Positions 7,025 through 48,291 of a stretch of 64,000 bases of DNA are shown here, piece after piece. Made by a program: the position numbers and the translations under genes. This stretch comes from Magnetococcales bacterium (GTDB lineage Bacteria; Pseudomonadota; Magnetococcia; Magnetococcales; UBA8363). Below the pieces are notes generated by a model. That model saw only the letters and a program-made list of their open reading frames with translations. It made no database searches and was not told the DNA's origin. Positions within the stretch are counted from its first letter, which is position 1, and the number at the start of each line of letters is the position of its first letter. The stretch lies in assembly GCA_015228975.1 (NCBI GenBank), contig JADGCN010000002.1:6323-70322 (forward strand), written 5' to 3'.

Positions 7025-7156
7025 CCAAACCCCTCCTTTATACAGTCGATGGCGGTGTGATTGACGACTGACATGTTATTATTGGTTCAATAATTGCAAA
7101 GACGCCTCCGTTTGGTGTAATCGTCATTGACCCAGTCCAGTCCTGAGAATTTTCCC

Positions 7157-10100: not shown

Positions 10101-10501
10101 TCATGCTTCAAGATGGTGACCATCTTATTATTCCGCAGCGGACTGATGAGGTCACTGTCATGGGCGAGGTCTATTTTCCCACTTCCCACCAATTCATTGG
10201 AGACAAGGATCTGGAAGCCTATATTCAGGCCAGTGGTGGTTATACCAGCAATGCGGATGATAGCCGGGTTTATGTCGTTCGGGCGGATGGCCGGGTGACT
10301 TCGAAAAAACAGCCCGGGAAATTTCCTGTTGTCGGCTGGTTTTCGTCCAGCAACGCCATTACAATCGGACCGGGGGATACCGTTGTTGTCCCTATGAATG
10401 TCGAAAAAGTGGCCCCCATGGTTCTTTGGAAAGATATCACCCAAATTTTGTATAATTTGGCCGTTACTTCCTCCGCCCTGAAGTCGGCTGGTGCCCTGTA
10501 A
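7157..10501 (+). CDS. Very large outer-membrane polysaccharide export (OPX/Wza-KpsD-like) protein with multiple SLBB domains
   Basis: Signal peptide MKRMLLTFGILTLCFSIVMG from ATG 7157. Poly_export-like block (YVIGPGDTFRLLFSG..VAVDGEGMVFVPDMGMFPVTGL). At least five repeats of the SLBB pattern (G.V..PG.Y......L..L...AGG). Contains a charged low-complexity insert at about 8866-9440. Confidence 0.85.
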   Translation: MKRMLLTFGILTLCFSIVMGSDALTLSNLSGQSLANINDPKTLKMLQGAKPGLVNPQDYRRDNRRRDKPDTVKNPEEIPAELLETPEKKPAPFYVETYPEDLPIFGQDLFVDKYRNAPVKDVTATVPGDYVIGPGDTFRLLFSGKDFKEVEVAVDGEGMVFVPDMGMFPVTGLRFNEFKTLLVSQTKQKLIGYELTHVALSSLRTMKIFLLGNVKNPGTHQVPSLTSLMQLLIETGGILPVGSLRNVQIKRNGVPDKTVDLYNVLLSGKGDGEIRLQDGDTVFVPMIGNTIALTGTVKKPAIYEIAKEETIADIAQLAGGFLPNAQFIKIERIDDNKNRTIVDLNLAKKESLRTAIRSGDIVHVLPSSDSRKETVTLTGYIDRGGVFQWYKGMRLSDIIPSPDILLPQTDLSHYLVVRTNMKNRQLEPLSANLERALSDRASADNILLQPNDQIQLFSISADHSKNLQSVVEKLRNQGRFNNTDKLVSIEGNVRFPGEYPYVPNMSLKQLIMASGDMRSNTDLDYCLIVRSDYMGRIQPFSVRLREVFGMEGVAKNIALKPKDKILVFTLDEKQKVKNSDNNSEKGMPADESEEKNTVFSGTSKENSRKIPGQNVQGLDIDQWSIDALKKAKDKKGNIQEQNEEHEEADGQKLPKQPGSAKGVDIALENEEMENVLVGFLLKNSTSDPVENRSNEAYRNQLVDPALHENQSRLLQLLLKKRDLRQMVREELQPVKEKAVKSRQALLKPVLEKLQDQATKEFPAQIIQIGGAIRYPGKYPLEPGMRISNLLLAGGGLAEPAYHLEAEINHFEVDDNQFTRMHHASVNLFKITQGDPTMDQALQPYDIIIVKQNPKWGDINSVMLEGNVRFPGIYPIQAGERLTQVLKRAGGLTELAYPEAAVFTRTKLIEKEKRENESLIARMETQLVQSQYMKQTEKESDTLNPNSAMIHELIAKLKTAKPIGRLAIDMNQVMSNPGGQYDVMLQDGDHLIIPQRTDEVTVMGEVYFPTSHQFIGDKDLEAYIQASGGYTSNADDSRVYVVRADGRVTSKKQPGKFPVVGWFSSSNAITIGPGDTVVVPMNVEKVAPMVLWKDITQILYNLAVTSSALKSAGAL

Positions 10502-16912: not shown

Positions 16913-17949
16913 AAAAGGGGGATCCCATCGGTGGCCAGGTTACTGATCAGTCAACGATACTTTCAATGATTCACCAGGCGTGTGCTGAAAGCCAACAGAT
17001 ACGTCTACTTATGGACCATCAGTTCCTGGAATATGTCACCCATTTTAAAACTGGTACCGAACCGGATGAATTTTTATATCTCCATGTCGGGGGTTTGGTG
17101 CCCCGCGTTGGCAATATTAAAATTCGCAAAAGTCATGTGATTACCATCACCTTCCTGATTGCCGACCGTGTTGCGGAAACCAAGGTACGCTTTCTGCGGG
17201 CGGTGACCAAAGAGATGTTTCGTCTGTCTTTTCCCAAATATGTGAAAATGATGGCGCAAAAGCGTTCAGCCGTCCGGGTCGCTCCCGGGTCCGCCATGAA
17301 GATTTCACTCACCATCATCCGGTCCGATGGGATGGAATTGGCGGCCCAATTGGTGGACATCAGTGCCGAAGGCTTGTCATTCCTCTTTGAAAAATCAGAG
17401 TACTACCTCCCCAAGGAGGCATCCGTTCAAGTCGTGCTTTCATGTGAGGATGGATGCTTCCACACTACTGTGGATGCCATGGTTGTAGGTCATGTATCGC
17501 GGGATATGGTTGAAGGGTATCGGGCCAAATTTATTTTTACCACTGTGGACCAAAGCATGCGGATCGGGGAATTGGTCGCTGGCATCCAAAGCCAAATTTT
17601 ACAACATCGTATCCAGGTATCTGGTGAGGAAAAGATCAAAACCTGGGAGGTGAAAACATTGGGTAAGGAGGATATTTCGACCTCATCCTTTGAGGATTGG
17701 CATGATCGATATTACAGTCAATGGATGGATAAAGCTTATTTTGCCGCATGGATCGGAAACATCCTGAGTATGTGCGCGGGATTCTTGATTGCCTTGAATC
17801 TTTATGTTCATTGGGCGTATCCCCTTTTAATCGTGGCCTCATTGGTGATGGGGATGGGATTATCGGCACGGCATCGCTCGTTTCCTCTTTTGTTTGTTGG
17901 TTTCATTCTGTTATTAGGCGTCATTGGAACCATGCGTGTGTGGTGGTAA
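16909..17949 (+). CDS. Membrane-anchored PilZ-domain (c-di-GMP receptor-type) protein
   Basis: 346 aa. The GTG start overlaps the upstream stop (GTGA). PilZ signature RxxxR (QKRSAVRV) followed by DxSxxG (DISAEGLSF). Hydrophobic C-terminal helices (AAWIGNILSMCAGFLIALNLYV, LLIVASLVMGMGL, LLFVGFILLLGVIGTM). Confidence 0.75.
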   Translation: MKKGDPIGGQVTDQSTILSMIHQACAESQQIRLLMDHQFLEYVTHFKTGTEPDEFLYLHVGGLVPRVGNIKIRKSHVITITFLIADRVAETKVRFLRAVTKEMFRLSFPKYVKMMAQKRSAVRVAPGSAMKISLTIIRSDGMELAAQLVDISAEGLSFLFEKSEYYLPKEASVQVVLSCEDGCFHTTVDAMVVGHVSRDMVEGYRAKFIFTTVDQSMRIGELVAGIQSQILQHRIQVSGEEKIKTWEVKTLGKEDISTSSFEDWHDRYYSQWMDKAYFAAWIGNILSMCAGFLIALNLYVHWAYPLLIVASLVMGMGLSARHRSFPLLFVGFILLLGVIGTMRVWW

Positions 17950-34612: not shown

Positions 34613-35839
34613 GTGTTGCAACGCTCCATGGAAGACCTCCTTTTTCTCAGCCATCGCATCCCCTATCCCCCCAACAAGGGGGATAAAGTGCGGTCTTATC
34701 ACCTGCTGCGCTTTCTGGCACGCCATTATCGGGTGCATGTCGGGGCTTTTATCGACACACCCGAAGATTGGGCCCATGCCCCTGTATTGCAGGAATTGTG
34801 TCATGGCGAAACCCATTGGGCCGCATTAAATCCCCGTTGGGCCAGGGTGAAAGCCTTGCGTGGTCTTTGGCGGGATCAGTCCCTTACTTATCATTATTAT
34901 GCCAACCGGGGCATGCAACGTTGGGTCAATGACCTCATGGGGCGTCTGAAGGTGCCGCGTATCCTGGTTTATTCGGCGGCTCCCTGTCGTTTTGTCATGC
35001 ATCCCTGGTCGCATCAGCCCAGGTGTGTGATTGATTTTGTCGATGTCGATTCGGTCAAATGGCTGGAGTATGCCCGGAGCAGCCGAGGTCTCATGAGTCG
35101 TATCCATGCCCGGGAGTCCAGGACCCTTCAGGAAATGGAGCGTGCCATTGCCAGTCGTTTTGCGGCCTCATTGTTCGTCAGTCATGCGGAGGCGGAATTG
35201 TTTCGGCAGGTGGCTCCCGAATCCGCGGATCGGGTTCATTATTGGGAAAATGGGGTGGACAGTGAGTTTTTCAACCCCCTGGAGGCCTATCCCAATCCCT
35301 ATGGTTCAGGTGAAACGTTGGTTTTTACCGGGGCCATGGACTATCGCCCGAATATTCAGGGGGTGGTTTGGTTTGCGGAACGTATTTTTTCCCGCATACG
35401 GCAAAAGTCACCCACCGCTCGATTTGCCATTGTCGGTGCCAGACCTGATCGAGCGGTGAAGCGTTTGGCGACCCAGGAGGGGATTGAAGTTGTTGGAGCG
35501 GTGGCGGATGTGCGGCCCTATCTGGCGCATGCCCGTGCGGCAGTGGCACCCTTGATGATTGCCCGTGGGGTGCAAAACAAGGTGTTGGAAGCGATGGCCA
35601 TGGCCAAGCCGGTGATCGCCACGCCCCAGGCGATGGAGGGGATCCGTTACCATCCGGGTTTGCACAATTGGGTGACCGAGAAACCGGAATTATTTGCCCA
35701 CTATGCCCTGAAACTTTTGGATCCGTTGGAAGGCGTTCAAAAAGCCGCTGAGTATGGCCAGATGGGGCGGCAATTTATCCTGGAACATTACCAGTGGGAG
35801 ACCAATTTGCAAAAAGTCCTGGGGATCTTGGAGCCTTGA
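34613..35839 (+). CDS. Glycosyltransferase of the PEP-CTERM/exosortase-locus-associated type (TIGR03087-like)
   Basis: N-terminal LFLSHRIPYPPNKGDKVRSYHLL is the hallmark I recall for this family, and the C-terminal half is GT-B-like. The start may be the Met at 34628. Confidence 0.75.
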   Translation: MLQRSMEDLLFLSHRIPYPPNKGDKVRSYHLLRFLARHYRVHVGAFIDTPEDWAHAPVLQELCHGETHWAALNPRWARVKALRGLWRDQSLTYHYYANRGMQRWVNDLMGRLKVPRILVYSAAPCRFVMHPWSHQPRCVIDFVDVDSVKWLEYARSSRGLMSRIHARESRTLQEMERAIASRFAASLFVSHAEAELFRQVAPESADRVHYWENGVDSEFFNPLEAYPNPYGSGETLVFTGAMDYRPNIQGVVWFAERIFSRIRQKSPTARFAIVGARPDRAVKRLATQEGIEVVGAVADVRPYLAHARAAVAPLMIARGVQNKVLEAMAMAKPVIATPQAMEGIRYHPGLHNWVTEKPELFAHYALKLLDPLEGVQKAAEYGQMGRQFILEHYQWETNLQKVLGILEP

Positions 35840-36975
35840 AAAGAATTTGTATCGCCCACGTGCTTTATCGTCTGGATGTAGGTGGTCTGGAGACCGTGGT
35901 CGTCAATCTGATGAACCGCCTTCCCCATGACCAATTTGAACACCATGTGATCGCCTTGACCCGCTGTGGCGATTTCAAAAACCGGGTCGAGCGTGCCGAT
36001 GTTTGTTATTACGAATTGGATAAGAAGGCCGGCAAGGATTGGCTGGTGTGGTTGCGCTTGTGGAAACTGTTGAACCATATAAAACCGGATGTGGTCCATT
36101 CCTGTAATATTGCCACGTTGGAGGGGTCCATACCCGCTTTTTTTGCGGGTCGTCCGCTTGTGGTGCATGCCGAACATGGTCGGGACAGTTACGACCCCCA
36201 TGGCGAAAATCGCACCTACATCTGGCTGCGGCGGCTGCTTCATCCTTTTGTCGATACATTTGTTTGCGTGTCGCGTGATTTGTATGTTTGGTTGCGGGAT
36301 CGGGTGGGCATTCCAGAACGGAAAATCAGGTTGATTGTCAATGGTATCGACAGTCATCGTTATACACCTGGATCCAAAATGGCCTTGCCTTGCCCCGGTT
36401 TTGCCGATGAAACATCGTTCATTATTGGCAGCGTGGGTCGGCTTTGGTCCATCAAGGATCCGGCCAATTTGGTGCGGGCTTTGGCGCATTTGGGCCGAGT
36501 GGATCCTCCTGGATTGCAGCGGTGCCGTCTGGTATTGGTTGGTGATGGACCTGAGCGCAGGGCCGTGGAGCAATTGGCCAAAGAATTGGGGGTGTTCGAT
36601 AAAATATGGATTACCGGTTGGCGCGATGATGTGGCGCAATTATTGCGATCTTTTGATCTGTTTGTGCTGCCTTCCCGGGCCGAAGGGACACCACTGACCA
36701 TCTTGGAAGCCATGGCCTGTGGCCTGCCAGTGGTCGCAACACGGGTCGGAGGTGTAGCCGATCTGGTCAAGGAGGGTGAAACCGGGAACTTGGTGCCTCC
36801 CCAGGACGCGGAAGCCTTGTCACAGGCAATTCTGCGCCACTTGCAGAATCCCCGGTGGTCGCATAGCCTGGGTGCCGCAGCTCGAAGACGGGTGGAACGC
36901 GATTATTCGCTGGATGCCATGGTCGAGGGGTATCGTGTCTTGTTTCTGAACCGTTTGTTACAAAAAATAGAATAG
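35836..36975 (+). CDS. GT4 glycosyltransferase of the PEP-CTERM/exosortase-locus-associated type (TIGR03088-like)
   Basis: TTG 35836 overlaps the upstream stop (TTGA). IAHVLYRLDVGGLETVVVNLMNRLP..HHVIALT start and an EGTPLTILEAMACGLPVVAT GT4 motif. Confidence 0.78.
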   Translation: MKRICIAHVLYRLDVGGLETVVVNLMNRLPHDQFEHHVIALTRCGDFKNRVERADVCYYELDKKAGKDWLVWLRLWKLLNHIKPDVVHSCNIATLEGSIPAFFAGRPLVVHAEHGRDSYDPHGENRTYIWLRRLLHPFVDTFVCVSRDLYVWLRDRVGIPERKIRLIVNGIDSHRYTPGSKMALPCPGFADETSFIIGSVGRLWSIKDPANLVRALAHLGRVDPPGLQRCRLVLVGDGPERRAVEQLAKELGVFDKIWITGWRDDVAQLLRSFDLFVLPSRAEGTPLTILEAMACGLPVVATRVGGVADLVKEGETGNLVPPQDAEALSQAILRHLQNPRWSHSLGAAARRRVERDYSLDAMVEGYRVLFLNRLLQKIE

Positions 36976-37039
36976 ATTACAATTCTTCTTTTGATTTTGT
37001 TTCATAAAAAGCGTACTCTCACACTGAGGTTTGGGTAAA

Positions 37040-37056
37040 AGGTGAGGCGCTTGCAA
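37040..37056 (+). promoter_or_regulatory. Candidate sigma-54 (-24/-12) promoter
   Basis: AGGTGAGGCGCTTGCAA compared with the consensus TGGCACG-N4-TTGCW. GG (37041-42) and GC (37053-54) are at canonical spacing and TTGCA is intact. Lies 30 nt upstream of ATG 37086. Confidence 0.3.
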
Positions 37057-37085
37057 ACTGCGCAATACTTCAAGGACAATCAGCC

Positions 37086-37592
37086 ATGGTTGACGGTCAG
37101 GACGGTCCGAAACATATCCAAAACATCTTGGATCCTGTGGCCTCAGGGGAGGTTGTCCCGGCTCAGACCAAGCTTGTCAGGCGACGTCTCATATTGAAAG
37201 GACTGGCTGCTGGTGTCCCTGCCGTCATTACCCTTCAAGGTGCCTCCTCTGCGGCTGCTGCGGCTACTTCCAGCGGTAACTGCATTACAGGTAGCAATAT
37301 AACCTCTTTGGCCAGCTATGGGACCAATCGGTGTGTTTCGACTGCGGTCGCTGCAACCAGTATTATTCAGCGTTACAATCGTACCGATACCACCGTCTGG
37401 GGGTCTACTGCGGCGGCGCCATGTACAGCCGGGGCTCCCATGGGTGCCATCTATACCAATGCTTCTGGTGTGGCCGCCACATCCAGTGCGGGAGGGGGCG
37501 CGAATTATTGGGGTGGCAATGCCGGTCAGAACGTTAATCCAGCCTCTGGATATTATGCAGTGACCAAATCATGCTGGGGTTCCTTCCACTAA
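37086..37592 (+). CDS. Small secreted Ala/Ser/Gly/Thr-rich four-Cys protein with a twin-arginine signal; candidate substrate of the downstream cassette
   Basis: 168 aa. AAGGA Shine-Dalgarno 9 nt upstream. VRRRLILKGLAAGVPAVITLQGASSAAAAA has a Tat-type RRxhhK motif, h-region and AxA sites. The mature part has four Cys and ends GYYAVTKSCWGSFH. Confidence 0.65.
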   Translation: MVDGQDGPKHIQNILDPVASGEVVPAQTKLVRRRLILKGLAAGVPAVITLQGASSAAAAATSSGNCITGSNITSLASYGTNRCVSTAVAATSIIQRYNRTDTTVWGSTAAAPCTAGAPMGAIYTNASGVAATSSAGGGANYWGGNAGQNVNPASGYYAVTKSCWGSFH

Positions 37593-37623
37593 AATAAATC
37601 AGCCCTACTGTATTTTTTGCAAC

Positions 37624-37944
37624 ATGTCCATACTCGCCCCTGCCCCTGATGACGGATTTCCGTTGCCAACGCCGCACAGGTGGACACGGGGGAAATGCCC
37701 ACCACTGGTGCATGTCCCATTGGGTGATCATCACATGATTTTCAATCCCATGTCGGGCCATACCCATTGGATCAACGAATTGGTCGTCGACATCCTTGAA
37801 ATATTGGCCCAGCACCCCATGGATGGTCGGGAGTTGATGACAGAGATGCAATTGGACCCTGCAGAGGATAGCAACTTGGCGGAAATGGAACGCATCCTTA
37901 ATGAACTGGATCGCTTGGGTTTGATCTTTCCGGTTGCATCGTGA
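37624..37944 (+). CDS. PqqD-family (RiPP recognition element-like) protein, HPr-rel-A type
   Basis: 106 aa. HHMIFNPMSGHTHWINELVVDILEIL...ILNELDRLGLI follows the PqqD/RRE pattern of beta strands followed by LNE..a.I...L and a terminal L..L...GLI. Confidence 0.75.
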   Translation: MSILAPAPDDGFPLPTPHRWTRGKCPPLVHVPLGDHHMIFNPMSGHTHWINELVVDILEILAQHPMDGRELMTEMQLDPAEDSNLAEMERILNELDRLGLIFPVAS

Positions 37945-38861
37945 ACATCGGCCAACTGTCATCCCGAGAGCTGTGCAACCAACTGCGATCGACCGGGTTG
38001 CGCTGGATCCTCGGTCCCTTTATCGTCCATTTGCGCTCCCGGGTACCGGATTTTTTTCAGCATTTGCAGATGTTTTATCATGAAAATGAGATATTGGAAC
38101 CGCCGTGGGACGATATCGCTGATTTTCACGCATCGTTGCACCCTTCCTTTGGACTGCGGCGCTATTGGCGACCCAAAGTCAGTTTCCGTTTGGATGGCAA
38201 CTCCTTTTTCACCCCTTTTCCTTTGAGCCACGCCCCTCCCATGTTTGAGTGGGGGATGAATATGGCCGTCGCTTCCCGAAGCAATCACTATCTATTATTA
38301 CATGCGGCTGTTTTGGAAAAAGGGGGGTGCGCCCTGGTTTTACCGGGAACGCCGGGGTCCGGGAAAAGTACCTTGAGCGCAGCATTATCCCTGCGTGGGT
38401 TTCGTCTACTTTCGGATGAATTTGGATTGTATTGTCCGCAAAAAAAAGTGTTCATGGCCAATGCCCGACCTGTTGGGTTGAAAAATGAATCCATTGACGT
38501 GATTCGTGCTTTCGATCCCCGGGCGGTACTGAGTGAGGAATATCCCCACACCCGAAAAGGAACGGTCAGTTTTTTGCGGGTTCCGGTCGGGAGCGTGCAG
38601 CAGATCGATTTTGGCGTGGTGCCGCGCTGGATAGTCTTTCCCACGTTTGAACAGCAAAGCGCCACCTATTTGGAGAAAATTCCGGCAGGGGAAGGTTTTT
38701 TGCGTTTGGCTGCCAACGCTTTCAATTATGAAACCCTGGGACAAAGCGGATTTGGCGGCATTGCTGAGATGGTACGTGACTCACAGATGATGCAACTGCG
38801 TTTTGGTCGCCTGGATGAAGCGGTGGCCGAGTTGCAAAATTTGACTTCGGTAACACCATGA
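37941..38861 (+). CDS. HPr kinase-related P-loop kinase (HprK-related kinase A type)
   Basis: The GTG start overlaps the upstream stop (GTGA). LLLHAAVLEKGGCALVLPGTPGSGKSTLSAALSLRGFRLLSDEF..GLKNESIDVIR has an HprK-like Walker A and matches remembered family TIGR04352. Confidence 0.78.
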   Translation: MNIGQLSSRELCNQLRSTGLRWILGPFIVHLRSRVPDFFQHLQMFYHENEILEPPWDDIADFHASLHPSFGLRRYWRPKVSFRLDGNSFFTPFPLSHAPPMFEWGMNMAVASRSNHYLLLHAAVLEKGGCALVLPGTPGSGKSTLSAALSLRGFRLLSDEFGLYCPQKKVFMANARPVGLKNESIDVIRAFDPRAVLSEEYPHTRKGTVSFLRVPVGSVQQIDFGVVPRWIVFPTFEQQSATYLEKIPAGEGFLRLAANAFNYETLGQSGFGGIAEMVRDSQMMQLRFGRLDEAVAELQNLTSVTP

Positions 38862-40558
38862 ATCCTGTGAATGGGATTGTTGCCCGGGTCAGGGCTCGAC
38901 TTCCTTGGAGTCCAAGTCGATTCTCCCCAGTGGTCACCGGCGTGATGATTGGGATTCTGGGTTGGTTCGTGCGATCTTTTCCCAATTATTGCCCCGTGAG
39001 GCATACCCTGAACCGGTTGCTCATGGGTACCAATCGGTATGCCGATGCCTTGACCAGTCTACAGCAAACCGTGGCAAACGGTTGTGTCACGGCTCAGGTT
39101 CATGCCCATTTGGCGGTGGTATACAGGCATTCCCAGCGACTGATGGCGGCTGAAAAATCGATGCGCTCCGCCTTGGAACGGGAACCTGGCAATGCGAACT
39201 GGTGGACGGAACTGGGTGTTATCCTATCGCTGCGGCAACATCGCAATCTGGCTTTGCAGGCGTTTGTCAGGGCTATTGCGTTACAGCCTGATTGTGTTGA
39301 GGCGTTGTTTCATTTGGCCAGACTCCATCTGGAGGTCAGTTTTTTTAATGCAGCGTTGGCCGAAGAGTATAGCCGTCGTGCCCTGCAGGTTGATCCCAAT
39401 CACCTCGGCTCTCTTTCTTGCTGTGCTAACGCCCTTGGAATGTTGGGAAAGTTGCAGGAAGCAGCCGTTCTTCATGAAAAAATTCTGGCGTTATCCCCTA
39501 ACAATGCTTACGCCCTGGAAAACTTGCTGGCCATGAATTGCCTTCCCCTGGGACACAAGGGTGAGGAACTACAGTCCACAATGACAAGCATGTTTCCTGT
39601 AGATCAGGCCAAAAGTCTCTTTGCCATGGCTAAGATCCACATGAAGAAAAAAGATATTGATCAAGCTTTCGCCAGTTACCAGCAGGGCAATCGCATCATG
39701 CGCCAAAGCTTTTTTTACGCCATTGATCAGGACGCCATGAATGCACAACGTGTCCAGGCGGTATTTGATCAGCGTTTCTTTTCAGACCGTGCCGGTTGGG
39801 GTGATCCTGCGGACAAGCCGATTTTTATTGTGGGGATGCCACGTTCAGGAACCACCCTGGTGGAACAGATTCTCGCAACGCACCCGTTATGCCATGGTGG
39901 TGGGGAACGATTTGAAGTCTACGAACTTGCCAATACCATGGGAACCTTGTCTCGAACCCATCTGGCTTATCCCGAGGCGACACGGGAATTGACGCGGGAA
40001 GAGGTACGAATACTTGGGCACAGTTGCGTGCAATCCTTGACCCTGTTGAATCCTTCAGCCATCCGGATTACTGATAAGTTACCCCATAATTTTCACTATG
40101 TTGGCCTGATTCATCTCCTCATGCCCAATGCACGTATCATTCATTGCCGGCGTCATCCCCTGGATACCTGCCTGAGTTGCTACCAACAATTATTTGCTGG
40201 CCATATACCTTACGCCTATGATCTGGAGGAATTGGGGCGATACTACCGCATCTATCATCACCTGATGCGGCATTGGCAACAAGCCTTGCCGGGACGCATG
40301 TTGGACATCCACTATGAACAGGTTGTCGATGATCTGGAGATGATGGTCGGTCGCATTCTTGATTATTGTGGTTTGCCCTGGCATGATGATTGTCTGAATT
40401 TTCATCAAGTCGAGCGGCAGGTGGATACGGCTAGTTTTATTGAAGTGCGGCAACCTTTGTACCGAACTTCAAGAGGTCGATGGAAGGTTTTTGCAGAACA
40501 TTTGCAACCATTGCGGCACGCCCTGGGGGATGTGCTTGAAGATGCGGAAGGGTATTGA
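38858..40558 (+). CDS. TPR-repeat protein fused to a sulfotransferase domain
   Basis: The ATG overlaps the kinase stop (ATGA). TPR-like helices occupy about aa 60-230. PAPS 5'-phosphosulfate loop GMPRSGTTLVEQIL and 3'-phosphate motif IIHCRRHPLDTCLSCY. Confidence 0.82.
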   Translation: MNPVNGIVARVRARLPWSPSRFSPVVTGVMIGILGWFVRSFPNYCPVRHTLNRLLMGTNRYADALTSLQQTVANGCVTAQVHAHLAVVYRHSQRLMAAEKSMRSALEREPGNANWWTELGVILSLRQHRNLALQAFVRAIALQPDCVEALFHLARLHLEVSFFNAALAEEYSRRALQVDPNHLGSLSCCANALGMLGKLQEAAVLHEKILALSPNNAYALENLLAMNCLPLGHKGEELQSTMTSMFPVDQAKSLFAMAKIHMKKKDIDQAFASYQQGNRIMRQSFFYAIDQDAMNAQRVQAVFDQRFFSDRAGWGDPADKPIFIVGMPRSGTTLVEQILATHPLCHGGGERFEVYELANTMGTLSRTHLAYPEATRELTREEVRILGHSCVQSLTLLNPSAIRITDKLPHNFHYVGLIHLLMPNARIIHCRRHPLDTCLSCYQQLFAGHIPYAYDLEELGRYYRIYHHLMRHWQQALPGRMLDIHYEQVVDDLEMMVGRILDYCGLPWHDDCLNFHQVERQVDTASFIEVRQPLYRTSRGRWKVFAEHLQPLRHALGDVLEDAEGY

Positions 40559-44336: not shown

Positions 44337-45101
44337 TTATGCATCGACCGTGAAATGGACCCGTTCTCCCGTTTGGGCGTTGAACCGGTGTTGCGCGCTC
44401 CCTTGATTGACGATGATTTCGATGGTTCCAAAACCTCCTGCAACCAATGCCGCTTCTCCCAGGGGTACCGAGGCAAAGGTGTTGACCAATGTGCCACACG
44501 CTTGTCCGTGAATCGTTCCCCGCAGTGTCTTTCCTGCCACCACGGATTTTGGCAGGGCGGTAATCAGGTTGCCGTATCGGTCACTCAACATGATGGTTGC
44601 GTCAAATCCACCCGCGACGACCGACCACCCCGGGTCGTTGCACCGGACCGGGTCATGCACCGGCGTTCCAAGATTTTCCAAGGTTTCTCCGTTGTGGAGC
44701 CTGGCGGCTACTGGGGCGAACAGGTCACGTCCATGAAAGGTAGGTGCTGCATGGGCATTCCTTGGCAGGGATACCGCTTGCCAATCGGCATTCTGGAAAA
44801 TGGGTGTTAAAAGTCCATTATCTGGGCCTACATAAAAGCTTATGCCCGAGCTGATGGCCAAACCCCGTCGCGAGCTTCCCACCCCGGGATCAACAACACA
44901 GAGCCATATGGATGGCGCTGGCATGATTGGCAGGCACCGCTCAAGCAACCAGGCACCGCTGGCAATGGAAAACGGTGGCAGGTCATGGTACAGGTCGATG
45001 ATTCTGGCTTCAGGGGCATAACGATGTAACACCCCTTTGACTTGCCCAACATAGGGGTCCGAGGTTCCGAAATCGGTCAACAGGACAAAGGGGATATTCA
45101 A
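44337..45101 (-). CDS. SAM hydroxide adenosyltransferase family (DUF62, chlorinase/fluorinase-like) protein
   Basis: 254 aa. The LLTDFGTSDPYVGQVKGVL N-terminus is typical of DUF62. The TTG start overlaps the stop of the upstream gene (TTGA). Confidence 0.82.
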   Translation of the reverse strand: MNIPFVLLTDFGTSDPYVGQVKGVLHRYAPEARIIDLYHDLPPFSIASGAWLLERCLPIMPAPSIWLCVVDPGVGSSRRGLAISSGISFYVGPDNGLLTPIFQNADWQAVSLPRNAHAAPTFHGRDLFAPVAARLHNGETLENLGTPVHDPVRCNDPGWSVVAGGFDATIMLSDRYGNLITALPKSVVAGKTLRGTIHGQACGTLVNTFASVPLGEAALVAGGFGTIEIIVNQGSAQHRFNAQTGERVHFTVDA

Positions 45102-46066
45102 AGCGGGGGGGTGGTCGGGTTATTTTGGACCAGGGGATCGGTCTTAAGGCTGTCTTGCAGGGCAATAAACCCGGCTTTGCGTATAATTTCCTGACCTTGC
45201 GATCCCTGTACCCAATCGATAAAAGGTTGTGCCAGGGAGACACGCGAATCCAGAACCAGGAAAAACAAAGGTCGCGCCAAAGGATAAAGACCCTTGTGGG
45301 TAAAGTCGGCAGTTGGGGGGACGCAGGCGGTTTCCTGGGCATCATCGCCGGCAACACAGACGGTTTTGACGTCGTTGGTGACGGTTGCCATACTGGTGAA
45401 AGCGATGGCGCATGGGGAAAGCGCAACCTTTTCCATCAACTTTTCTGGCTGGCGGATGGTGATCAGGTTGGCGTGAAAATGATTATGCTCCTTTAAAACC
45501 GTTTCACGGAAATAGAAATAGTCACCCGAATTGTTTTTCCGCGATATCCTTTGGATGGTGTTGTTATCGCAACCGGGTACCTCCACGCCAAGATCGGACC
45601 AGCGGGAATAACCGCCAGAGTTACCGAAGATGCGTGTCAACTGGCTCATGGTCAAGCCATTGAGGGGGTTGCTTTTGTGTACGACGATGGACAAGGCATC
45701 CATACCGATGATGTGTGTTTTAGGAAGTTTCCCGGAACGTTGAGATATCAGGCGAATTTCTCTTTCTTTCAGGTTGCGGGTGGTAACGGCGATATCAACA
45801 TGGCCGTTGATGAGGGCGGCAATACCATTGCCCGATCCCCCACCGTCCACTTCAAAAAAGACCCCGGGATTATTGGCATGATAGATCTTGGTCCAGGCCA
45901 GGACCACATCGACCATGGCATTGGAACCTTTGATGTGAATGAGATTCACGGCTTCCGAGGAACCTTGCGCCGGGTAGGGGCCGAGGAGAAGGGCTGCCGT
46001 CAGGTTCAGGAATACGAAGAGAATTGTGCGGAGTGTCGGGTGCCTTGTGATGTGTTGTGTTCCCAT
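45098..46066 (-). CDS. PstS-like periplasmic substrate-binding protein (orphan, no pstCAB adjacent)
   Basis: 322 aa. Signal peptide, then IKGSNAMVDVV..VDGGGSGNGIAALINGHVDIA..R (PBP_like_2 pattern). The start lies 2 nt after the upstream stop. Confidence 0.8.
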   Translation of the reverse strand: MGTQHITRHPTLRTILFVFLNLTAALLLGPYPAQGSSEAVNLIHIKGSNAMVDVVLAWTKIYHANNPGVFFEVDGGGSGNGIAALINGHVDIAVTTRNLKEREIRLISQRSGKLPKTHIIGMDALSIVVHKSNPLNGLTMSQLTRIFGNSGGYSRWSDLGVEVPGCDNNTIQRISRKNNSGDYFYFRETVLKEHNHFHANLITIRQPEKLMEKVALSPCAIAFTSMATVTNDVKTVCVAGDDAQETACVPPTADFTHKGLYPLARPLFFLVLDSRVSLAQPFIDWVQGSQGQEIIRKAGFIALQDSLKTDPLVQNNPTTPPL

Positions 46067-46068
46067 TG

Positions 46069-48291
46069 TCAGGCGACCGCCAATTCCAGGCTATTGGTGT
46101 CCAGGGTACAGTGGATATGCAGTGCGGCATCCTGGAGCAATGGTTTGTCGAAGGATTGGCTGGCGATGAAAAATTGCTGGATCGTATCGCTGATGCCAGC
46201 CAAGGCCCGGTACGACTCAAGGAAACGGTCGCGGTCGTAATGGGCAAACGGTTCATCGAGCATCATGAACTGTGCATGCGCTTGGGTGCGGGCGGTTATG
46301 GCCTGGGTCAAGGCGAAACGCAACGCCAGCATTAATTGACGCCGCAGACCGCGTGAGGTCTCCAGCATATCGACATAATCATTCTTGCTGGGGGAGAAGG
46401 CGGACAGATTCAATTTGTCATCGACGCGCAAATGTTGATAGCGGCCATGGGTGAATAAAGGTGCCGATTTGGCAATCTGTCTTTTAAGTTCATGGCTGAA
46501 GGCGAGGGCGATCTCATGAATGGTTCCGTGAATCAGCCGCCGTCCCAGGGTGCGGACATCGACGCCATGGGAGGTTTGGCTGTAACTCGCCGTGAGTTCT
46601 TGGTGACGCGCCTGCAGGCTTTGATGACGCTGATGGCGTTGTTGTTCGTGACGGATTTCCTGATCCAGAATGGCCAGATTGTCGGTGACGGCACTCAGTT
46701 GATCGCGGGCCTGTTGCAGGGCGTCATCCTGTCTTTTGAACATGCCCTCCAGCACCGAATGCAAACGATCAGCATCTTCTTTGAACTGGGCAATCAAATG
46801 GAGCAGCGCCTGTTCGTCGCCCATATTGCGACCGTGGGATTGCATCCAGAGCTGCAAAGTTTCCTGCCATTCGACCTTGTCGCCCAGAGAATTCAGTCGG
46901 GCGATCTGTTGGCACAGGGTGAGCTTGGCGCTCTCTTCCAAAGCGGCGACAATTTTTTGTTCCGATCCGGCACGTAATTGCAGGTTGTAACGCGCCTGCT
47001 TGTTATGGGAACGGACGGCCAGGCTGTTGATGAATTGACCGAGGCCAAAAAAGGAAATCATAAGAAAAAACAAACCCGTTCCCATGGCGGCGTGCAGGTG
47101 GATTGTCTCCATGTGCGGCAGTAGCTTGGCCAGCGATTGGGCTATGGTACTGATATGGGAATTGTGGGAAAAAAAGGAGAGGGCGAATCCGCCAAGACCC
47201 ATGGGGAGACCCAGGGGAAGAAAAACCAAAAATTTTACAATTCCCCGGCGGCTGGTCAGGGATGCTCGGGTGTCCTCTTCCGTCAAGGCTTTCTGCTGAC
47301 CGGCCAAAGTTTCACCATCGGTGCCCGAAAGCCAGTGGGAACGAGACAGTCTGTCCTGGTCGGCCCTGTTGACGATGGCGTTGAAGGCCTGGAGATTTTC
47401 GATGGTTTGTTGCGCTTTGCTGCGAATCCTGGCGACCATTGCGGCGGCTTCGCCCAGGTCCAGTGTGGTAAGCGACGAAAGGGAGGATTGCAGGCTTTTT
47501 AAATTGTGATGCCAAATGGGCAAAGTGGCTTGCCGGCCTTGTTCGATTGCGTTGCTCAGATGACCGGTTGCCACCTGAAAACCGGATCGCAAGACCTCTA
47601 TCTGTCGGGTTTGGTTGCTGATGGTCGTTTCGAGACTCTTCTGCCGTTCCGTGTTCACAGCAAACTTTTGTTGCAGTTCCGGCAATAGTTGGGGTTGCAG
47701 ATTGAGATCGGTCAACTCCTGGGTGACACCGGTGAGTTCGGCATTGAGGCGACTTTGTTGATCCCGTCCCGATCTGATTTCCGCCTCCAAATGTGCCGAA
47801 AGGTTTTCAAGGTCATCAACACCGGCAACCATGCGGACGATGGCCTCCGGGTTTTCCCCCTCCGGTGACCCCTGGGACAGATACGCTGTTTCGAGAAAAT
47901 GAGAGAATTCCATACCGGCGGCTTGGATCATCGCTTCGTCGACTTCCGTTGCCCCGGCGAGGGGAACCTCCTGGTCTTGAACGATCAAACGAGCCAGGTT
48001 GTGCGGTTCTTGGCGGTTGAATTGGCGATGGATCGTGACGTTTTGTCCGCTGGAACTGATGAAATCAAGGGAAATGGAACCTTGCGCAGTGCCCCAATGG
48101 AGGATTTTTTCGATCTGGTTGTGGTCCAGGTTGGCCGTGCGACCAAAAAGGGCCAGGCAAATGGTTTCGAAAATGGCCGACTTGCCTGATTCGTTATCGC
48201 CACTGATGACGATGTTCCCCCGGGTGGGGAAAGAAAGATCCAGGTGCGCGAAGCGCAGAATGTTTTCGGCCTTCAGGTGGCGGATAATCAT
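46069..48291 (-). CDS. Rad50/SbcC/SMC-like AAA ATPase with a central transmembrane hairpin (YhaN-like architecture)
   Basis: 740 aa. N-terminal Walker A ISGDNESGKSAIFETICLALFG, long Q/E/L-rich coiled-coil arms, two hydrophobic helices at aa 351-374 and 401-426 (nt about 47014-47241), and a C-terminal Walker B QFMMLDEPFAHYD. Confidence 0.8.
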   Translation of the reverse strand: MIIRHLKAENILRFAHLDLSFPTRGNIVISGDNESGKSAIFETICLALFGRTANLDHNQIEKILHWGTAQGSISLDFISSSGQNVTIHRQFNRQEPHNLARLIVQDQEVPLAGATEVDEAMIQAAGMEFSHFLETAYLSQGSPEGENPEAIVRMVAGVDDLENLSAHLEAEIRSGRDQQSRLNAELTGVTQELTDLNLQPQLLPELQQKFAVNTERQKSLETTISNQTRQIEVLRSGFQVATGHLSNAIEQGRQATLPIWHHNLKSLQSSLSSLTTLDLGEAAAMVARIRSKAQQTIENLQAFNAIVNRADQDRLSRSHWLSGTDGETLAGQQKALTEEDTRASLTSRRGIVKFLVFLPLGLPMGLGGFALSFFSHNSHISTIAQSLAKLLPHMETIHLHAAMGTGLFFLMISFFGLGQFINSLAVRSHNKQARYNLQLRAGSEQKIVAALEESAKLTLCQQIARLNSLGDKVEWQETLQLWMQSHGRNMGDEQALLHLIAQFKEDADRLHSVLEGMFKRQDDALQQARDQLSAVTDNLAILDQEIRHEQQRHQRHQSLQARHQELTASYSQTSHGVDVRTLGRRLIHGTIHEIALAFSHELKRQIAKSAPLFTHGRYQHLRVDDKLNLSAFSPSKNDYVDMLETSRGLRRQLMLALRFALTQAITARTQAHAQFMMLDEPFAHYDRDRFLESYRALAGISDTIQQFFIASQSFDKPLLQDAALHIHCTLDTNSLELAVA

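What the first reader, a model, noticed from the sequence alone, without database searches (positions are those of the whole stretch)
36976..40558. Coupled PqqD-like RRE, HPrK-like kinase and TPR-sulfotransferase behind a small secreted protein: candidate peptide/protein modification system
Seen in sequence: three genes are chained by overlapping stop and start codons (GTGA at 37941-44, ATGA at 38858-61). They encode a 106-aa PqqD-family protein, a P-loop kinase with HprK-type Walker A (GTPGSGKST), and a TPR protein carrying both PAPS-binding sulfotransferase motifs. Directly upstream (31-nt gap), behind its own 110-nt promoter region, is a 168-aa protein that could be the substrate. Established knowledge: PqqD domains are the leader-peptide recognition elements of RiPP pathways. 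HPr-kinase homologues phosphorylate lasso-peptide precursors (paeninodin-type clusters). Sulfotransferases modify the RiPP RaxX. PqqD plus HprK-related-kinase pairs have only been catalogued as a conserved cassette of unknown function near exosortase/EPS loci. Inference: this is an uncharacterised tailoring module that could add phosphate and/or sulfate to a secreted polypeptide or to the neighbouring EPS pathway. No lasso cyclase, protease or radical-SAM gene is present, so it matches no RiPP class I know.
Basis: partly seen in the sequence, partly recalled or inferred. Interest (0 to 1): 0.8.

Follow-up and report, generated by a model that had tools for sequence, protein, structure and literature searches.

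The report
Phospho/sulfo protein-tailoring cassette with its precursor
Four tightly linked genes in a Magnetococcales genome encode a small leader-bearing protein, a peptide-binding adaptor, an HPr-kinase-like kinase and a tyrosine-sulfotransferase-like enzyme. They look like a Gram-negative, sulfotransferase-carrying variant of the phosphorylated-peptide (LPP) pathways recently described in Bacillota, and the small protein is probably the substrate that nobody had catalogued.

Summary
The two middle genes belong to NCBI's 'HPr-rel-A system' (TIGR04353 45 bits against a cut-off of 35; TIGR04352 335 against 200).

A survey of 83 non-redundant loci changes the picture in three ways.
- The kinase's near-constant downstream partner is an NTP_transf_5 nucleotidyltransferase (80 of 83 loci). 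It is absent from this window.
- The TPR-sulfotransferase lies between kinase and nucleotidyltransferase only in some Magnetococcales. All seven of its best solved relatives are protein-tyrosine sulfotransferases.
- The upstream 168-aa protein belongs to a family with no Pfam or NCBIfam model. A member sits directly upstream of the PqqD gene in nearly every locus. Members share a twin-arginine/hydrophobic N-terminal leader and have variable C-terminal parts.

This architecture matches the LPP RiPP pathway of Bacillota (Popov 2026), but there is no dedicated peptidase or exporter.

Best reading (confidence 0.55): the adaptor binds the leader, the kinase phosphorylates the protein, the sulfotransferase sulfates it, and the signal-like leader drives export. 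No modification has been demonstrated.

Verdict: a new variant of a known kind; interest 0.62.

The parts
34613..35839 (+). Context gene: stp1-type GT4 glycosyltransferase of the PEP-CTERM/XrtA EPS system.
   Evidence: TIGR03087 506 bits (cut-off 317). Conserved upstream of the cassette in Magnetococcales relatives.
35794..36975 (+). Context gene: stp2-type GT4 glycosyltransferase of the PEP-CTERM/XrtA EPS system.
   Evidence: TIGR03088 476 bits (cut-off 409).
36976..37085 (+). 110-nt intergenic region ahead of the small gene. A sigma-70-like site (TTGTTA-17-TACAAT) spans 36955-36983, and AAGGA lies about 9 nt before the ATG.
   Evidence: The promoter-like hits in the region are not above chance (5 found against 6.0 expected), so the promoter is only a possibility.
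37086..37592 (+). 168-aa small protein, the candidate precursor or substrate. Layout: polar N-region, twin-arginine/hydrophobic leader, 4 Cys, conserved C-terminal motif.
   Evidence: No Pfam or NCBIfam match. 5 close homologs, all from Magnetococcales and all followed by the cassette. About 80 cluster representatives in the exhaustive profile search. The wider family lies directly upstream of the PqqD gene in 83 of 87 sources. dN/dS 0.18-0.26.
37176..37259 (+). Leader segment, aa 31-58: VRRRLILKGLAAGVPAVITLQGASSAAA. It contains the twin-arginine motif RRLILK, a hydrophobic stretch and an Ala-rich end.
   Evidence: This is the most conserved part of the protein: mean top-residue frequency 0.70, against 0.29 for the core (73 sequences). 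The Kyte-Doolittle 15-residue maximum is 1.81 at ILKGLAAGVPAVITL. The family motif TLxS reads TLQG in this protein.
37548..37589 (+). C-terminal motif, aa 155-168: GYYAVTKSCWGSFH. It defines the group-1 type.
   Evidence: The pattern (Y)YA(V/I)TxSCWxSF at or near the C-terminus recurs across the profile hits.
37624..37944 (+). 106-aa discrete PqqD-type RRE (HPr-rel-A system PqqD family peptide chaperone).
   Evidence: TIGR04353 45.2 bits (cut-off 35). A profile of 35 orthologs has the lasso B1 RREs as its best solved matches: TfuB1 E=6.5e-4 and TbiB1 E=0.063. Pfam PF05402 gave no hit.
37941..38861 (+). 306-aa HprK-related kinase A. Walker A GTPGSGKST lies at 38346-38372, followed by LRGFRLLSDE.
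   Evidence: TIGR04352 335 bits (cut-off 200). AF2 model pLDDT 93.3. Foldseek against PDB: ATP-dependent PEPCK E about 3e-7, then HprK/P E=1.5e-3. G139, G141, K142, S143, T144, S158, D159 and E160 are invariant in 15 orthologs.
38858..40558 (+). 566-aa TPR-sulfotransferase. TPR repeats span about aa 53-276. The TPST-like catalytic domain spans aa 320-528 (39815-40441), with the 5'-PSB motif PRSGTT at 39839-39856.
   Evidence: PF13469 171.8 bits plus TPR families. The seven best PDB matches to the domain are all protein-tyrosine sulfotransferases (8w5z E=4e-10, TPST1/2). GMPRSGTTL, H..G.GE, TDKxPHNF and IIHCxRxPxDTCLS are invariant in 8 cassette-linked orthologs.

Best explanation
What it is. 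The four genes are a Magnetococcales variant of the 'HPr-rel-A' cassette. Comparative analysis shows that the cassette is normally a four-part RiPP-like protein-tailoring unit. The parts are:
(1) a precursor-like small protein with a conserved N-terminal leader and a variable C-terminal part;
(2) a discrete PqqD-type recognition element (RRE);
(3) an HprK-like kinase;
(4) an NTP_transf_5 nucleotidyltransferase.
This is the proteobacterial counterpart of the LPP (linear polyphosphorylated peptide) pathway of Bacillota and of the paeninodin-type lasso tailoring set.

What differs here. A TPR-fused, tyrosylprotein-sulfotransferase-like enzyme sits after the kinase in this lineage. In the window's sub-lineage the nucleotidyltransferase and the XrtA amidotransferase are absent.

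Proposed mechanism. Every step is inferred; none has been shown.
1. In the cytoplasm the RRE binds the conserved leader (RRRLILKGLAAGVPAVITL...) of the 168-aa protein.
2. The RRE presents the protein to the kinase, which phosphorylates a Ser or Thr, possibly several times as LppK and PadeK do.
3. The sulfotransferase docks through its TPR domain and O-sulfates the protein from PAPS. The conserved Tyr-Tyr before the C-terminal SCW motif is the obvious candidate site.
4. The twin-arginine-type leader then directs export, and the general signal peptidase removes it. This would replace the dedicated SpI peptidase and MsbA exporter of LPP clusters.
5. The anionic product acts in the envelope or the exopolysaccharide matrix made by the neighbouring glycosyltransferases.
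For: - Family membership of the RRE and the kinase is above the curated cut-offs.
- The RRE profile is closest to the lasso B1 leader-binding proteins.
- The kinase has a confident PEPCK/HprK-like fold with intact P-loop and SDE residues.
- The gene order small ORF, PqqD, kinase, NTP_transf_5 holds across 83 non-redundant loci from Beta- and Gammaproteobacteria, Magnetococcales and others. The kinase is in 83, NTP5 in 80, and the small protein in 83 of 87 sources. 78 of 84 small-protein hits lie directly upstream of PqqD on the same strand, no hit lies elsewhere among about 12,000 ORFs, and a reversed-sequence database gives 0 hits.
- The leader is the most conserved segment (0.70 against 0.29 for the core), and C-terminal parts fall into several unrelated types. 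That is the RiPP pattern, and it is the same as reported for LPP precursors: 35-200 aa, conserved N-terminus, variable C-terminus (PMC13381572).
- LPP clusters also sit inside polysaccharide loci. There the HprK-like kinase polyphosphorylates a core Ser and the RRE presents the leader to a signal-peptidase-type enzyme.
- The sulfotransferase gene overlaps the kinase stop codon by 4 nt here and in L089 and L091. It lies inside the cassette, between kinase and NTP5, in 4 distinct loci (L002, L003, L009, L010) and in L089.
- The sulfotransferase keeps all PAPS and catalytic motifs, and its seven best solved matches are all protein-tyrosine sulfotransferases.
- No dedicated peptidase or exporter is conserved near the cassette. 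This fits a leader that uses the general export machinery.
Against: - No modification, binding or export has been demonstrated for any member of this proteobacterial cassette, and I found no paper on it.
- The Tat-signal reading rests on a motif (RRLILK), hydrophobicity and an Ala-rich end. The Pfam and NCBIfam scans returned no signal-sequence family for the window protein at E<=0.01. One relative gave only a sub-threshold PF10518 TAT_signal hit (E=0.026).
- The family motif TLxS resembles the LPP T(-1)xxS(3) spacing and is present in 126 of 157 members. In this window's protein it reads TLQG, so that Ser cannot be a universal acceptor.
- The Tyr-Tyr motif also occurs in loci without the sulfotransferase (L012, L087).
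- The sulfotransferase occurs only in one lineage and sits in an EPS locus, so a polysaccharide target is possible.
- The otherwise near-invariant NTP_transf_5 is missing here.
- The small protein gave no usable structure model (pLDDT 32.5).
- At 110-250 aa these are proteins rather than typical RiPP peptides.
Confidence: 0.55

Rival explanations
1. The sulfotransferase, and perhaps the kinase too, decorates the exopolysaccharide or a lipid-linked sugar intermediate made by the adjacent stp1/stp2 glycosyltransferases. This would give a sulfated or phosphorylated EPS. The small protein would be an unrelated secreted component of the same EPS locus.
For: The cassette sits directly after two XrtA/PEP-CTERM glycosyltransferases. 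In relatives it is followed by the XrtA amidotransferase TIGR03108. In many Betaproteobacteria it abuts the XrtA export, chain-length and tyrosine-kinase genes. The sulfotransferase is lineage-specific, as accessory EPS-decorating enzymes often are.
Against: A PqqD-type RRE is a peptide-binding module with no known role in glycan chemistry (established knowledge). The sulfotransferase domain matches protein-tyrosine sulfotransferases and then polyketide sulfotransferases, with no carbohydrate sulfotransferase at E<=0.01. It carries a TPR protein-interaction domain. The cassette also occurs away from XrtA genes (L026; L087). The small protein co-occurs with the RRE and kinase, not with the glycosyltransferases.
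Confidence: 0.2
2. The small protein is a Tat-exported periplasmic or extracellular protein. The PqqD-like protein is only its signal-peptide-binding proofreading chaperone, analogous to TorD or DmsD. The kinase, nucleotidyltransferase and sulfotransferase act on a different molecule, for example a cofactor or small molecule that is loaded onto the protein before export.
For: The twin-arginine motif, the hydrophobic stretch and the unusually high conservation of exactly this segment. Tat signal peptides with overlapping chaperone-binding functions are established (PMC3712460, listed). NCBI names the protein a 'peptide chaperone'.
Against: In the characterised LPP (PMC13381572) and paeninodin-type (PMC8498205) systems, the HprK-like kinase acts directly on the precursor peptide. 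No cofactor-biosynthesis genes are conserved nearby. The tight translational coupling of RRE and kinase suggests they act on one substrate.
Confidence: 0.15
3. The window's cassette is a decaying remnant. Having lost the nucleotidyltransferase and the amidotransferase, it no longer makes a functional product.
For: NTP_transf_5 is present in 80 of 83 loci but absent here. The sulfotransferase runs straight into folB in the window, L001 and L006.
Against: All four ORFs are intact with catalytic motifs conserved. The small gene and the PqqD gene are under purifying selection (dN/dS 0.09-0.26). An NTP5-less arrangement recurs in a separate genomic context in L091, and a minimal small/PqqD/kinase trio exists in L087. 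The LPP study saw phosphorylation and processing without any detectable contribution from its NTP transferase.
Confidence: 0.05

Closest known systems
LPP (linear polyphosphorylated peptide) RiPP clusters of Bacillota: LppA/B/K/N/S/D (Popov et al., Nat Commun 2026, PMC13381572)
   Same: [quoted passage not shown] Both have precursors of 35-200 aa with a conserved N-terminal region and highly variable C-termini. Both are embedded in polysaccharide-biosynthesis loci and have no macrolactam cyclase. Leader removal by a signal-peptidase-type enzyme is shown for LPP and only inferred here.
   Different: There is no dedicated SpI-like peptidase and no MsbA-like exporter here or in 83 related loci. 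The leader is a twin-arginine/hydrophobic segment, not YxxPxVLxHQxIxFETxxS. The host is Gram-negative, whereas the authors state that LPPs are restricted to Bacillota. A TPST-like TPR-sulfotransferase is added, and the NTP transferase is missing from this window. The chemistry of this cassette is untested.
HPr-rel-A system as catalogued by NCBIfam/TIGRFAMs (TIGR04352 HprK-related kinase A plus TIGR04353 PqqD family peptide chaperone)
   Same: Both proteins score above the curated cut-offs, their genes overlap by 4 nt, and they sit in an XrtA/PEP-CTERM-type EPS neighbourhood.
   Different: The usual third gene, NTP_transf_5 (PF14907), is absent. A sulfotransferase is present instead. The upstream small protein matches no Pfam or NCBIfam model, so the curated libraries do not hold the candidate substrate.
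Paeninodin/pseudomycoidin-type lasso peptide clusters of Firmicutes (PMC8498205)
   Same: The accessory set is the same: B1-type RRE, HPr-kinase homolog (Ser phosphorylation), nucleotidyltransferase (hexose added to the phosphate) and, in some clusters, a putative sulfotransferase.
   Different: There is no lasso cyclase and no B2 protease. The Asn-synthase homolog in relatives is the XrtA amidotransferase TIGR03108 (892-902 bits, cut-off 817). It scores far below the lasso cyclase cut-off (219-224 bits against 525).
RaxX/RaxST and eukaryotic TPST1/2 (protein tyrosine sulfation)
   Same: The catalytic domain belongs to PF13469 and has intact 5'-PSB and 3'-PB motifs. Its best solved relatives are TPSTs, aligned over about 200 residues.
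   Different: The domain is fused to an N-terminal TPR array of about 270 aa, is coupled to a kinase and an RRE, and has an unknown acceptor. RaxST itself was not compared directly.
Tat signal-peptide-binding chaperones (TorD/DmsD type REMPs)
   Same: The concept is shared: a small cytoplasmic protein binds a twin-arginine leader so that maturation finishes before export (PMC3712460, listed).
   Different: The fold family is unrelated (PqqD/RRE rather than TorD-like), and the role here is only inferred.

Membership tests
HPr-rel-A system (NCBIfam) | Kinase matches TIGR04352 above the curated cut-off | tested here: met
   335.1 bits against a cut-off of 200
HPr-rel-A system (NCBIfam) | Adjacent PqqD-family protein matches TIGR04353 above the cut-off | tested here: met
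   45.2 bits against a cut-off of 35. The genes overlap by 4 nt.
HPr-rel-A system (NCBIfam) | NTP_transf_5 (PF14907) gene immediately downstream of the kinase (near-invariant in my survey) | tested here: not met
   Present in 80 of 83 non-redundant loci. No hit anywhere in the 64-kb window. The sulfotransferase gene is followed by folB.
HPr-rel-A system (NCBIfam) | Conserved leader-bearing small protein directly upstream of PqqD (a feature established here, not part of the curated definition) | tested here: met
   found in 83 of 87 sources, with 0 hits in the reversed-sequence control.
PqqD / RiPP recognition element | Match to Pfam PqqD (PF05402) | tested here: not met
   No Pfam hit at E<=0.01
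PqqD / RiPP recognition element | Sequence relationship to experimentally defined RREs | tested here: met
   A profile of 35 orthologs hits TfuB1 (6jx3_B) at E=6.5e-4 and TbiB1 at E=0.063 as its top PDB matches. LppB (9X8Z) was not detected.
PqqD / RiPP recognition element | Binds the leader of the cognate precursor | not testable with these tools
   Needs a binding assay or complex prediction.
HPr kinase/phosphorylase superfamily | P-loop GxxGxGKS followed by RGxxLxxD(D/E) | tested here: met
   GTPGSGKST...LRGFRLLSDE. The residues are invariant in 15 orthologs and align to L. casei HprK/P.
HPr kinase/phosphorylase superfamily | PEPCK-like/HprK C-terminal domain fold | tested here: met
   AF2 model pLDDT 93.3. 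Foldseek: PEPCK E about 3e-7, HprK/P E=1.5e-3, TM-scores modest at 0.25-0.54.
HPr kinase/phosphorylase superfamily | Acts on HPr | not tested
   Unlikely given the context, but the window was not searched for an HPr gene.
LPP RiPP family (PMC13381572) | Discrete RRE plus HprK-like kinase in one operon | tested here: met
LPP RiPP family (PMC13381572) | Precursor with a conserved N-terminal region and a variable C-terminus | tested here: met
   Leader conservation 0.70 against 0.29 for the core. Several C-terminal classes exist.
LPP RiPP family (PMC13381572) | Leader motif YxxPxVLxHQxIxFETxxS | tested here: not met
   The leader is RRRxLLKGLAAGVPAIxTLxSG. Only the T-x-x-S spacing recurs (126 of 157 members), and this window's protein lacks it (TLQG).
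LPP RiPP family (PMC13381572) | SpI-like leader peptidase and MsbA-like exporter | tested here: not met
   Neither family recurs among the conserved neighbour families across the 83 loci, which include the window; the recurring families I scanned are GAF, trypsin-like protease and XrtA genes.
LPP RiPP family (PMC13381572) | NTP transferase (LppN-type) | tested here: not met
   Absent from the window and present in relatives. Whether LppN belongs to PF14907 was not checked.
LPP RiPP family (PMC13381572) | Polyphosphorylation of a core Ser | not testable with these tools
   Needs mass spectrometry.
Lasso peptide cluster | Macrolactam cyclase (C) and B2 cysteine protease | tested here: not met
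   None in the window. The AsnB homolog in relatives is TIGR03108 and falls below the lasso cyclase cut-off.
TPST-like sulfotransferase (PF13469) | Domain match and intact 5'-PSB and 3'-PB PAPS motifs | tested here: met
   171.8 bits. GMPRSGTTL and IIHCxRxPxDTCLS are invariant in 8 orthologs.
TPST-like sulfotransferase (PF13469) | Closest characterised relatives sulfate protein tyrosine | tested here: met
   The top 7 PDB matches are all protein-tyrosine sulfotransferases.
TPST-like sulfotransferase (PF13469) | Tyrosine O-sulfation of a defined protein | not testable with these tools
   Needs biochemistry.
Twin-arginine (Tat) signal peptide | RRxFLK-type motif, moderately hydrophobic h-region, AxA-type end | tested here: inconclusive
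   RRLILK is followed by GLAAGVPAVITL (KD15 1.81) and an Ala-rich end. An RRx-hydrophobic-hydrophobic-K-like motif occurs in 73 of 80 family members. The Pfam and NCBIfam scans returned no signal-sequence family for the window protein at E<=0.01, and one relative scored below cut-off on PF10518.

The most novel reading that the evidence does not exclude
The HPr-rel-A cassette is a very widespread Gram-negative family of RiPP-like pathways that tailor whole small proteins. A single N-terminal segment would serve both as the RRE docking site and as a twin-arginine export signal, so the PqqD-like protein would hold the precursor back until modification is finished. In Magnetococcales the product would be doubly anionic, carrying both phosphate and tyrosine sulfate. 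That would be a previously unknown class of secreted phospho-sulfo-proteins built into the exopolysaccharide matrix.
Probability: 0.2. Interest if true: 0.85.

Novelty: new variant of a known kind. Interest (0 to 1): 0.62.

Why it matters
The RRE/kinase pair is catalogued by NCBI, and the kinase has more than 5,500 homologs in the metagenome database. Even so, I found no paper on it and no curated model for a substrate.

Recognising the upstream leader-bearing protein as a conserved fourth member gives the cassette a testable substrate. It also links the cassette to the LPP pathway, whose authors considered it restricted to Bacillota.

If the link holds, phosphorylated RiPP-like products associated with polysaccharide loci exist across Gram-positive and Gram-negative bacteria. 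They would use two solutions for leader removal and export: a dedicated SpI peptidase plus ABC pump, or a general secretion-type leader.

The Magnetococcales variant adds a TPST-like enzyme. It would be only the second bacterial context after RaxX/RaxST in which tyrosine sulfation of a ribosomal product is suspected, and the first combined with phosphorylation. The four genes span only 3.5 kb, which makes co-expression straightforward.

Tried and rejected
- **Structure of the small protein.** AlphaFold2 on the 5-sequence alignment gave pLDDT 32.5. I did not use or interpret the model.
- **'ScmC' (PF27840) lead.** Literature searches returned only unrelated acronyms. NCBIfam showed it is the SynChlorMet cassette HprK-like protein, only weakly related (E=7.6e-6 against a 125-bit cut-off).
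- **Asn synthase as a hidden lasso cyclase.** Rejected. In relatives it is TIGR03108 above cut-off and far below the lasso cyclase cut-off.
- **Tyr-Tyr motif as a signature of sulfotransferase-bearing loci.** All 7 such loci have YYA, against 1 of 9 other group-1 loci. However, L012 and L087 have YY without the enzyme, and every sulfotransferase locus is from Magnetococcales, so the signal is confounded by phylogeny. Not relied on.
- **TLxS Ser as a universal phospho-acceptor.** This was prompted by the LPP T(-1)xxS(3) spacing. It is weakened because 31 of 157 members, including this window's protein, lack it.
- **N-terminal membrane anchor in the sulfotransferase.** The first ~50 residues are hydrophobic in places but poorly conserved. 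Inconclusive.
- **Exact look-up of the window kinase.** Not on record.
- **RRE-Finder and structure-based RRE papers.** Neither mentions HPr kinase, sulfotransferase or exosortase.
- **Promoter and terminator scans.** Not above chance.
- **LppB structure (9X8Z).** It did not appear in the PDB profile search, so I could not measure the relationship to LppB.

Full report
**1. The observation**

- The four ORFs are 37086-37592 (168 aa), 37624-37944 (106 aa), 37941-38861 (306 aa) and 38858-40558 (566 aa).
- GTGA at 37941-37944 and ATGA at 38858-38861 are stop/start overlaps.
- The small gene is 31 nt from the next gene. It follows a 110-nt intergenic region after a glycosyltransferase gene.
- The 106-aa protein matches TIGR04353, 'HPr-rel-A system PqqD family peptide chaperone' (45.2 bits, cut-off 35). 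The 306-aa protein matches TIGR04352, 'HprK-related kinase A' (335.1 bits, cut-off 200). The 566-aa protein carries TPR repeats and a Sulfotransfer_3 domain (171.8 bits).
- Pfam's own PqqD model does not hit, and the small protein matches nothing.
- The two upstream genes are the stp1 and stp2 glycosyltransferases of PEP-CTERM/XrtA exopolysaccharide loci (TIGR03087, TIGR03088).
- The source is a Magnetococcales MAG (99% identical protein).
- The rest of the window is mostly housekeeping and holds no exosortase.

**2. Are the four genes co-conserved?**

The small protein has only five close homologs among 5.8 billion proteins. All are from Magnetococcales, and every one is followed by a PqqD-like gene, a kinase and a TPR-sulfotransferase.

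I then fetched 80 genomic loci with a kinase alignment. They come mostly from Beta- and Gammaproteobacteria. I mapped homologs of each gene onto them, with three results.
- **Invariant partner.** The kinase's near-invariant downstream partner is an NTP_transf_5 (PF14907) nucleotidyltransferase, present in 80 of 83 non-redundant loci. It is absent from the whole 64-kb window. Here, in L001 and in L006 the sulfotransferase gene runs straight into folB. L091 also lacks it, in a different genomic context.
- **Sulfotransferase.** The TPR-sulfotransferase occurs only in some Magnetococcales loci. Where NTP5 is present, it lies between the kinase and NTP5. Other Magnetococcales cassettes lack it (L012, L016, L087). 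The fullest arrangement in this order is stp1, stp2, small protein, PqqD, kinase, sulfotransferase, NTP5, XrtA amidotransferase (L002, L089). In relatives the amidotransferase is TIGR03108, not a lasso cyclase.
- **Small protein.** Iterative searching from the window's small protein finds an ORF directly upstream of the PqqD gene, on the same strand, in 78 of 84 hits across 83 of 87 sources. The other six hits are also next to a cassette. No hit lies elsewhere among about 12,000 ORFs, and a reversed-sequence database gives none. Of the four sources without a hit, L019 and L025 are cut off by the contig end just upstream of the PqqD gene; L024 and L068 are unexplained.

None of these small proteins matches a Pfam or NCBIfam model. 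The small ORF is under purifying selection (dN/dS 0.18-0.26).

**3. Anatomy of the small-protein family**

The shared part is N-terminal:
- a polar stretch of 15-50 residues;
- a twin-arginine motif, an RRx-hydrophobic-hydrophobic-K-like pattern in 73 of 80 members;
- a moderately hydrophobic segment ending in 'TLxS', with the Thr 16-17 residues after the RR in most members;
- usually an Ala-rich or AxA-like end.

In the group that includes the window, this leader is the most conserved part of the protein. Mean top-residue frequency is 0.70, against 0.54 for the C-terminal motif, 0.29 for the core and 0.20 for the N-terminal polar region (73 sequences).

C-terminal parts fall into unrelated types:
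- a '(Y)YA(V/I)TxSCWxSF' type, found in Magnetococcales and some Gammaproteobacteria; about 80 cluster representatives appear in an exhaustive profile search;
- a '...AGVKW..DIVxYLKTTM' type, found in most Beta- and Gammaproteobacteria;
- a Cys-rich type in Thioalkalivibrio, and others.

A conserved leader with variable cores is the RiPP pattern. Whether the leader is a true Tat signal is unresolved. The motif and hydrophobicity fit, but the Pfam and NCBIfam scans returned no signal-sequence family for the window protein, and one relative gave only a sub-threshold TAT_signal hit.

**4. The enzymes**

*PqqD-like protein.* A profile of 35 orthologs has the lasso-peptide leader-binding proteins as its best solved matches: TfuB1 (E=6.5e-4) and TbiB1 (E=0.063).

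*Kinase.*
- It gives a confident model (pLDDT 93.3).
- The best structural matches are ATP-dependent PEPCK (E about 3e-7), then HprK/P (E=1.5e-3). From established knowledge these share one P-loop fold.
- The P-loop and the following RG..L.SDE segment are invariant and align with L. casei HprK/P.

*Sulfotransferase.*
- All seven best solved matches to the catalytic domain are protein-tyrosine sulfotransferases, aligned over about 200 residues. Two polyketide sulfotransferases follow, and no carbohydrate sulfotransferase appears at E<=0.01.
- In eight cassette-linked orthologs GMPRSGTTL, H..G.GE, TDKxPHNF and IIHCxRxPxDTCLS are invariant.
- The TPR region resembles the substrate-binding TPRs of OGT.
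- TPR-sulfotransferases as a whole are a very large, mostly uncharacterised family. The cassette-linked ones are the shortest, at about 555-577 aa.

**5. Comparison with what is known**

I found no paper on TIGR04352, TIGR04353 or PF14907 cassettes.

Firmicute lasso clusters of the paeninodin and pseudomycoidin type carry an HPr-kinase homolog that phosphorylates a precursor Ser. They also carry a nucleotidyltransferase that adds hexose to that phosphate and, in some clusters, a putative sulfotransferase (PMC8498205).

The closest match is the LPP family reported in 2026 (PMC13381572). Its features are:
- clusters in Bacillota, embedded in capsular-polysaccharide loci;
- precursors of 35-200 aa with conserved N-termini and variable C-termini;
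- a kinase that polyphosphorylates Ser3 of the core;
- an RRE that presents the cleavage site (after T-1) to the peptidase.

The authors regard LPPs as restricted to Bacillota. The cassette studied here shares the RRE, the kinase, the NTP transferase (in relatives), the precursor architecture and the polysaccharide context. It differs in these ways:
- it has no dedicated peptidase or exporter;
- its leader sequence is unrelated and looks like a secretion signal;
- its precursors are larger;
- it occurs in Gram-negative hosts;
- in this lineage it has gained a TPST-like sulfotransferase and, in this window, lacks the NTP transferase.

The T-x-x-S spacing of the family's 'TLxS' motif recalls LPP's T(-1)xxS(3). 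However, 31 of 157 members lack it, including the window's protein, which reads TLQGASS. I treat it as a lead only.

**6. Most likely mechanism and rivals**

Best reading (confidence 0.55):
1. The RRE binds the leader of the 168-aa protein in the cytoplasm.
2. The kinase phosphorylates the protein.
3. The TPR-sulfotransferase sulfates it, most plausibly on Tyr.
4. The leader drives export and is removed by the general signal peptidase.

What is shown: family memberships, gene order, co-conservation, intact catalytic motifs and the fold of the kinase. What is inferred: every biochemical step, the substrate identity and the export route.

Rivals:
- The sulfotransferase, or the whole enzyme set, decorates the exopolysaccharide (0.2).
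- The PqqD-like protein is only a Tat-leader chaperone, and the enzymes act on another molecule (0.15).
- The NTP5-less cassette is a decaying remnant (0.05). Intact ORFs, purifying selection and recurrence in L091 and L087 argue against this.

**7. Verdict**

This is not a categorically new system. It is a new variant of a known kind: the catalogued HPr-rel-A cassette, which resembles LPP and paeninodin tailoring.

Three points appear to be new relative to the curated libraries and the held literature:
- the conserved leader-bearing precursor family;
- the reach of an LPP-like architecture into Proteobacteria;
- the lineage-specific coupling to a tyrosine-sulfotransferase-like enzyme.

Interest is 0.62.

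Noticed in passing
window 12809-16912 (+) and 16909-17949 (+): A 1367-aa protein made of at least 10 'Helicase associated' (PF03457) repeats with no NCBIfam match. It is translationally coupled (4-nt overlap) to a 346-aa PilZ-domain protein. The pairing is unusual and suggests c-di-GMP control.
   Followed up: partly
window 7127-10501 (+): An unusually long (1124 aa) Wza/EpsE-like polysaccharide export protein with several SLBB domains. It scores below the cut-off for the XrtA/PEP-CTERM exporter model. It is the only other EPS-type gene in the window, and no exosortase is present.
   Followed up: partly
L033 4163-7046 and 8995-12012 (uncultured Methylomonas): Two complete cassettes (small protein, PqqD, kinase, NTP5) lie in tandem in one locus, with small proteins of different C-terminal types. 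One RRE/kinase set per precursor type would fit cognate leader discrimination.
   Followed up: no
L026 12102-12701 (-) and L086 12110-12706 (-) (Sedimenticola): Here the small-protein gene is not upstream of PqqD. It lies on the opposite strand, immediately downstream of NTP5. So the association survives a rearrangement. No XrtA gene was identified among the flanking ORFs scanned in L026 (two of them matched no NCBIfam model).
   Followed up: partly
L087 6001-7755 (Magnetococcales GCA_015231965.1): A minimal three-gene cassette of small protein, PqqD and kinase only. It has no NTP5, no sulfotransferase and no adjacent glycosyltransferases, which suggests the kinase step is the core chemistry.
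   Followed up: partly
L088 118-573 and 608-1132: A group-1 small-protein homolog with no PqqD or kinase gene anywhere on its 6-kb contig. It is followed by a 174-aa protein that looks like a pentapeptide-repeat protein by eye, and then by a phage RepO-like gene. This may be a mobile or orphan copy.
   Followed up: no
L011 12057-12866, L036 12080-12832 and about 28 other loci: A ~250-aa GAF-domain protein lies directly downstream of NTP5 on the same strand in 30 of 83 loci. It is a possible regulator or fifth component of the canonical cassette, and it is absent from the window.
   Followed up: partly
L014 7356-8141 and about 23 other loci: A ~260-aa trypsin-like (Trypsin_2, MarP/HtrA-like) serine protease lies about 2.5 kb upstream of the kinase, mostly on the same strand (83% of copies), in 24 loci. 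It is a candidate leader or processing peptidase for those cassettes.
   Followed up: partly
L054, L057, L061, L069 (Thioalkalivibrio): The small proteins in these loci are longer (246-302 aa as called) and very Cys-rich (13-16 Cys), ending in ...C.EVRT.... This is a distinct precursor class behind the same type of leader.
   Followed up: no
window 46069-48291 (-) and 45098-46066 (-): A 740-aa Rad50/SMC-like AAA_23 ATPase lies next to a PBP_like_2 binding protein. The same pair follows the cassette in L003. The folB-folK-dapA-cytochrome c-smpB block therefore lies between the cassette and this pair only in the window lineage.
   Followed up: no
window 44337-45101 (-): A 254-aa protein matches (R)-S-adenosyl-L-methionine hydrolase models below cut-off (177.5 bits against 350).
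   Followed up: no
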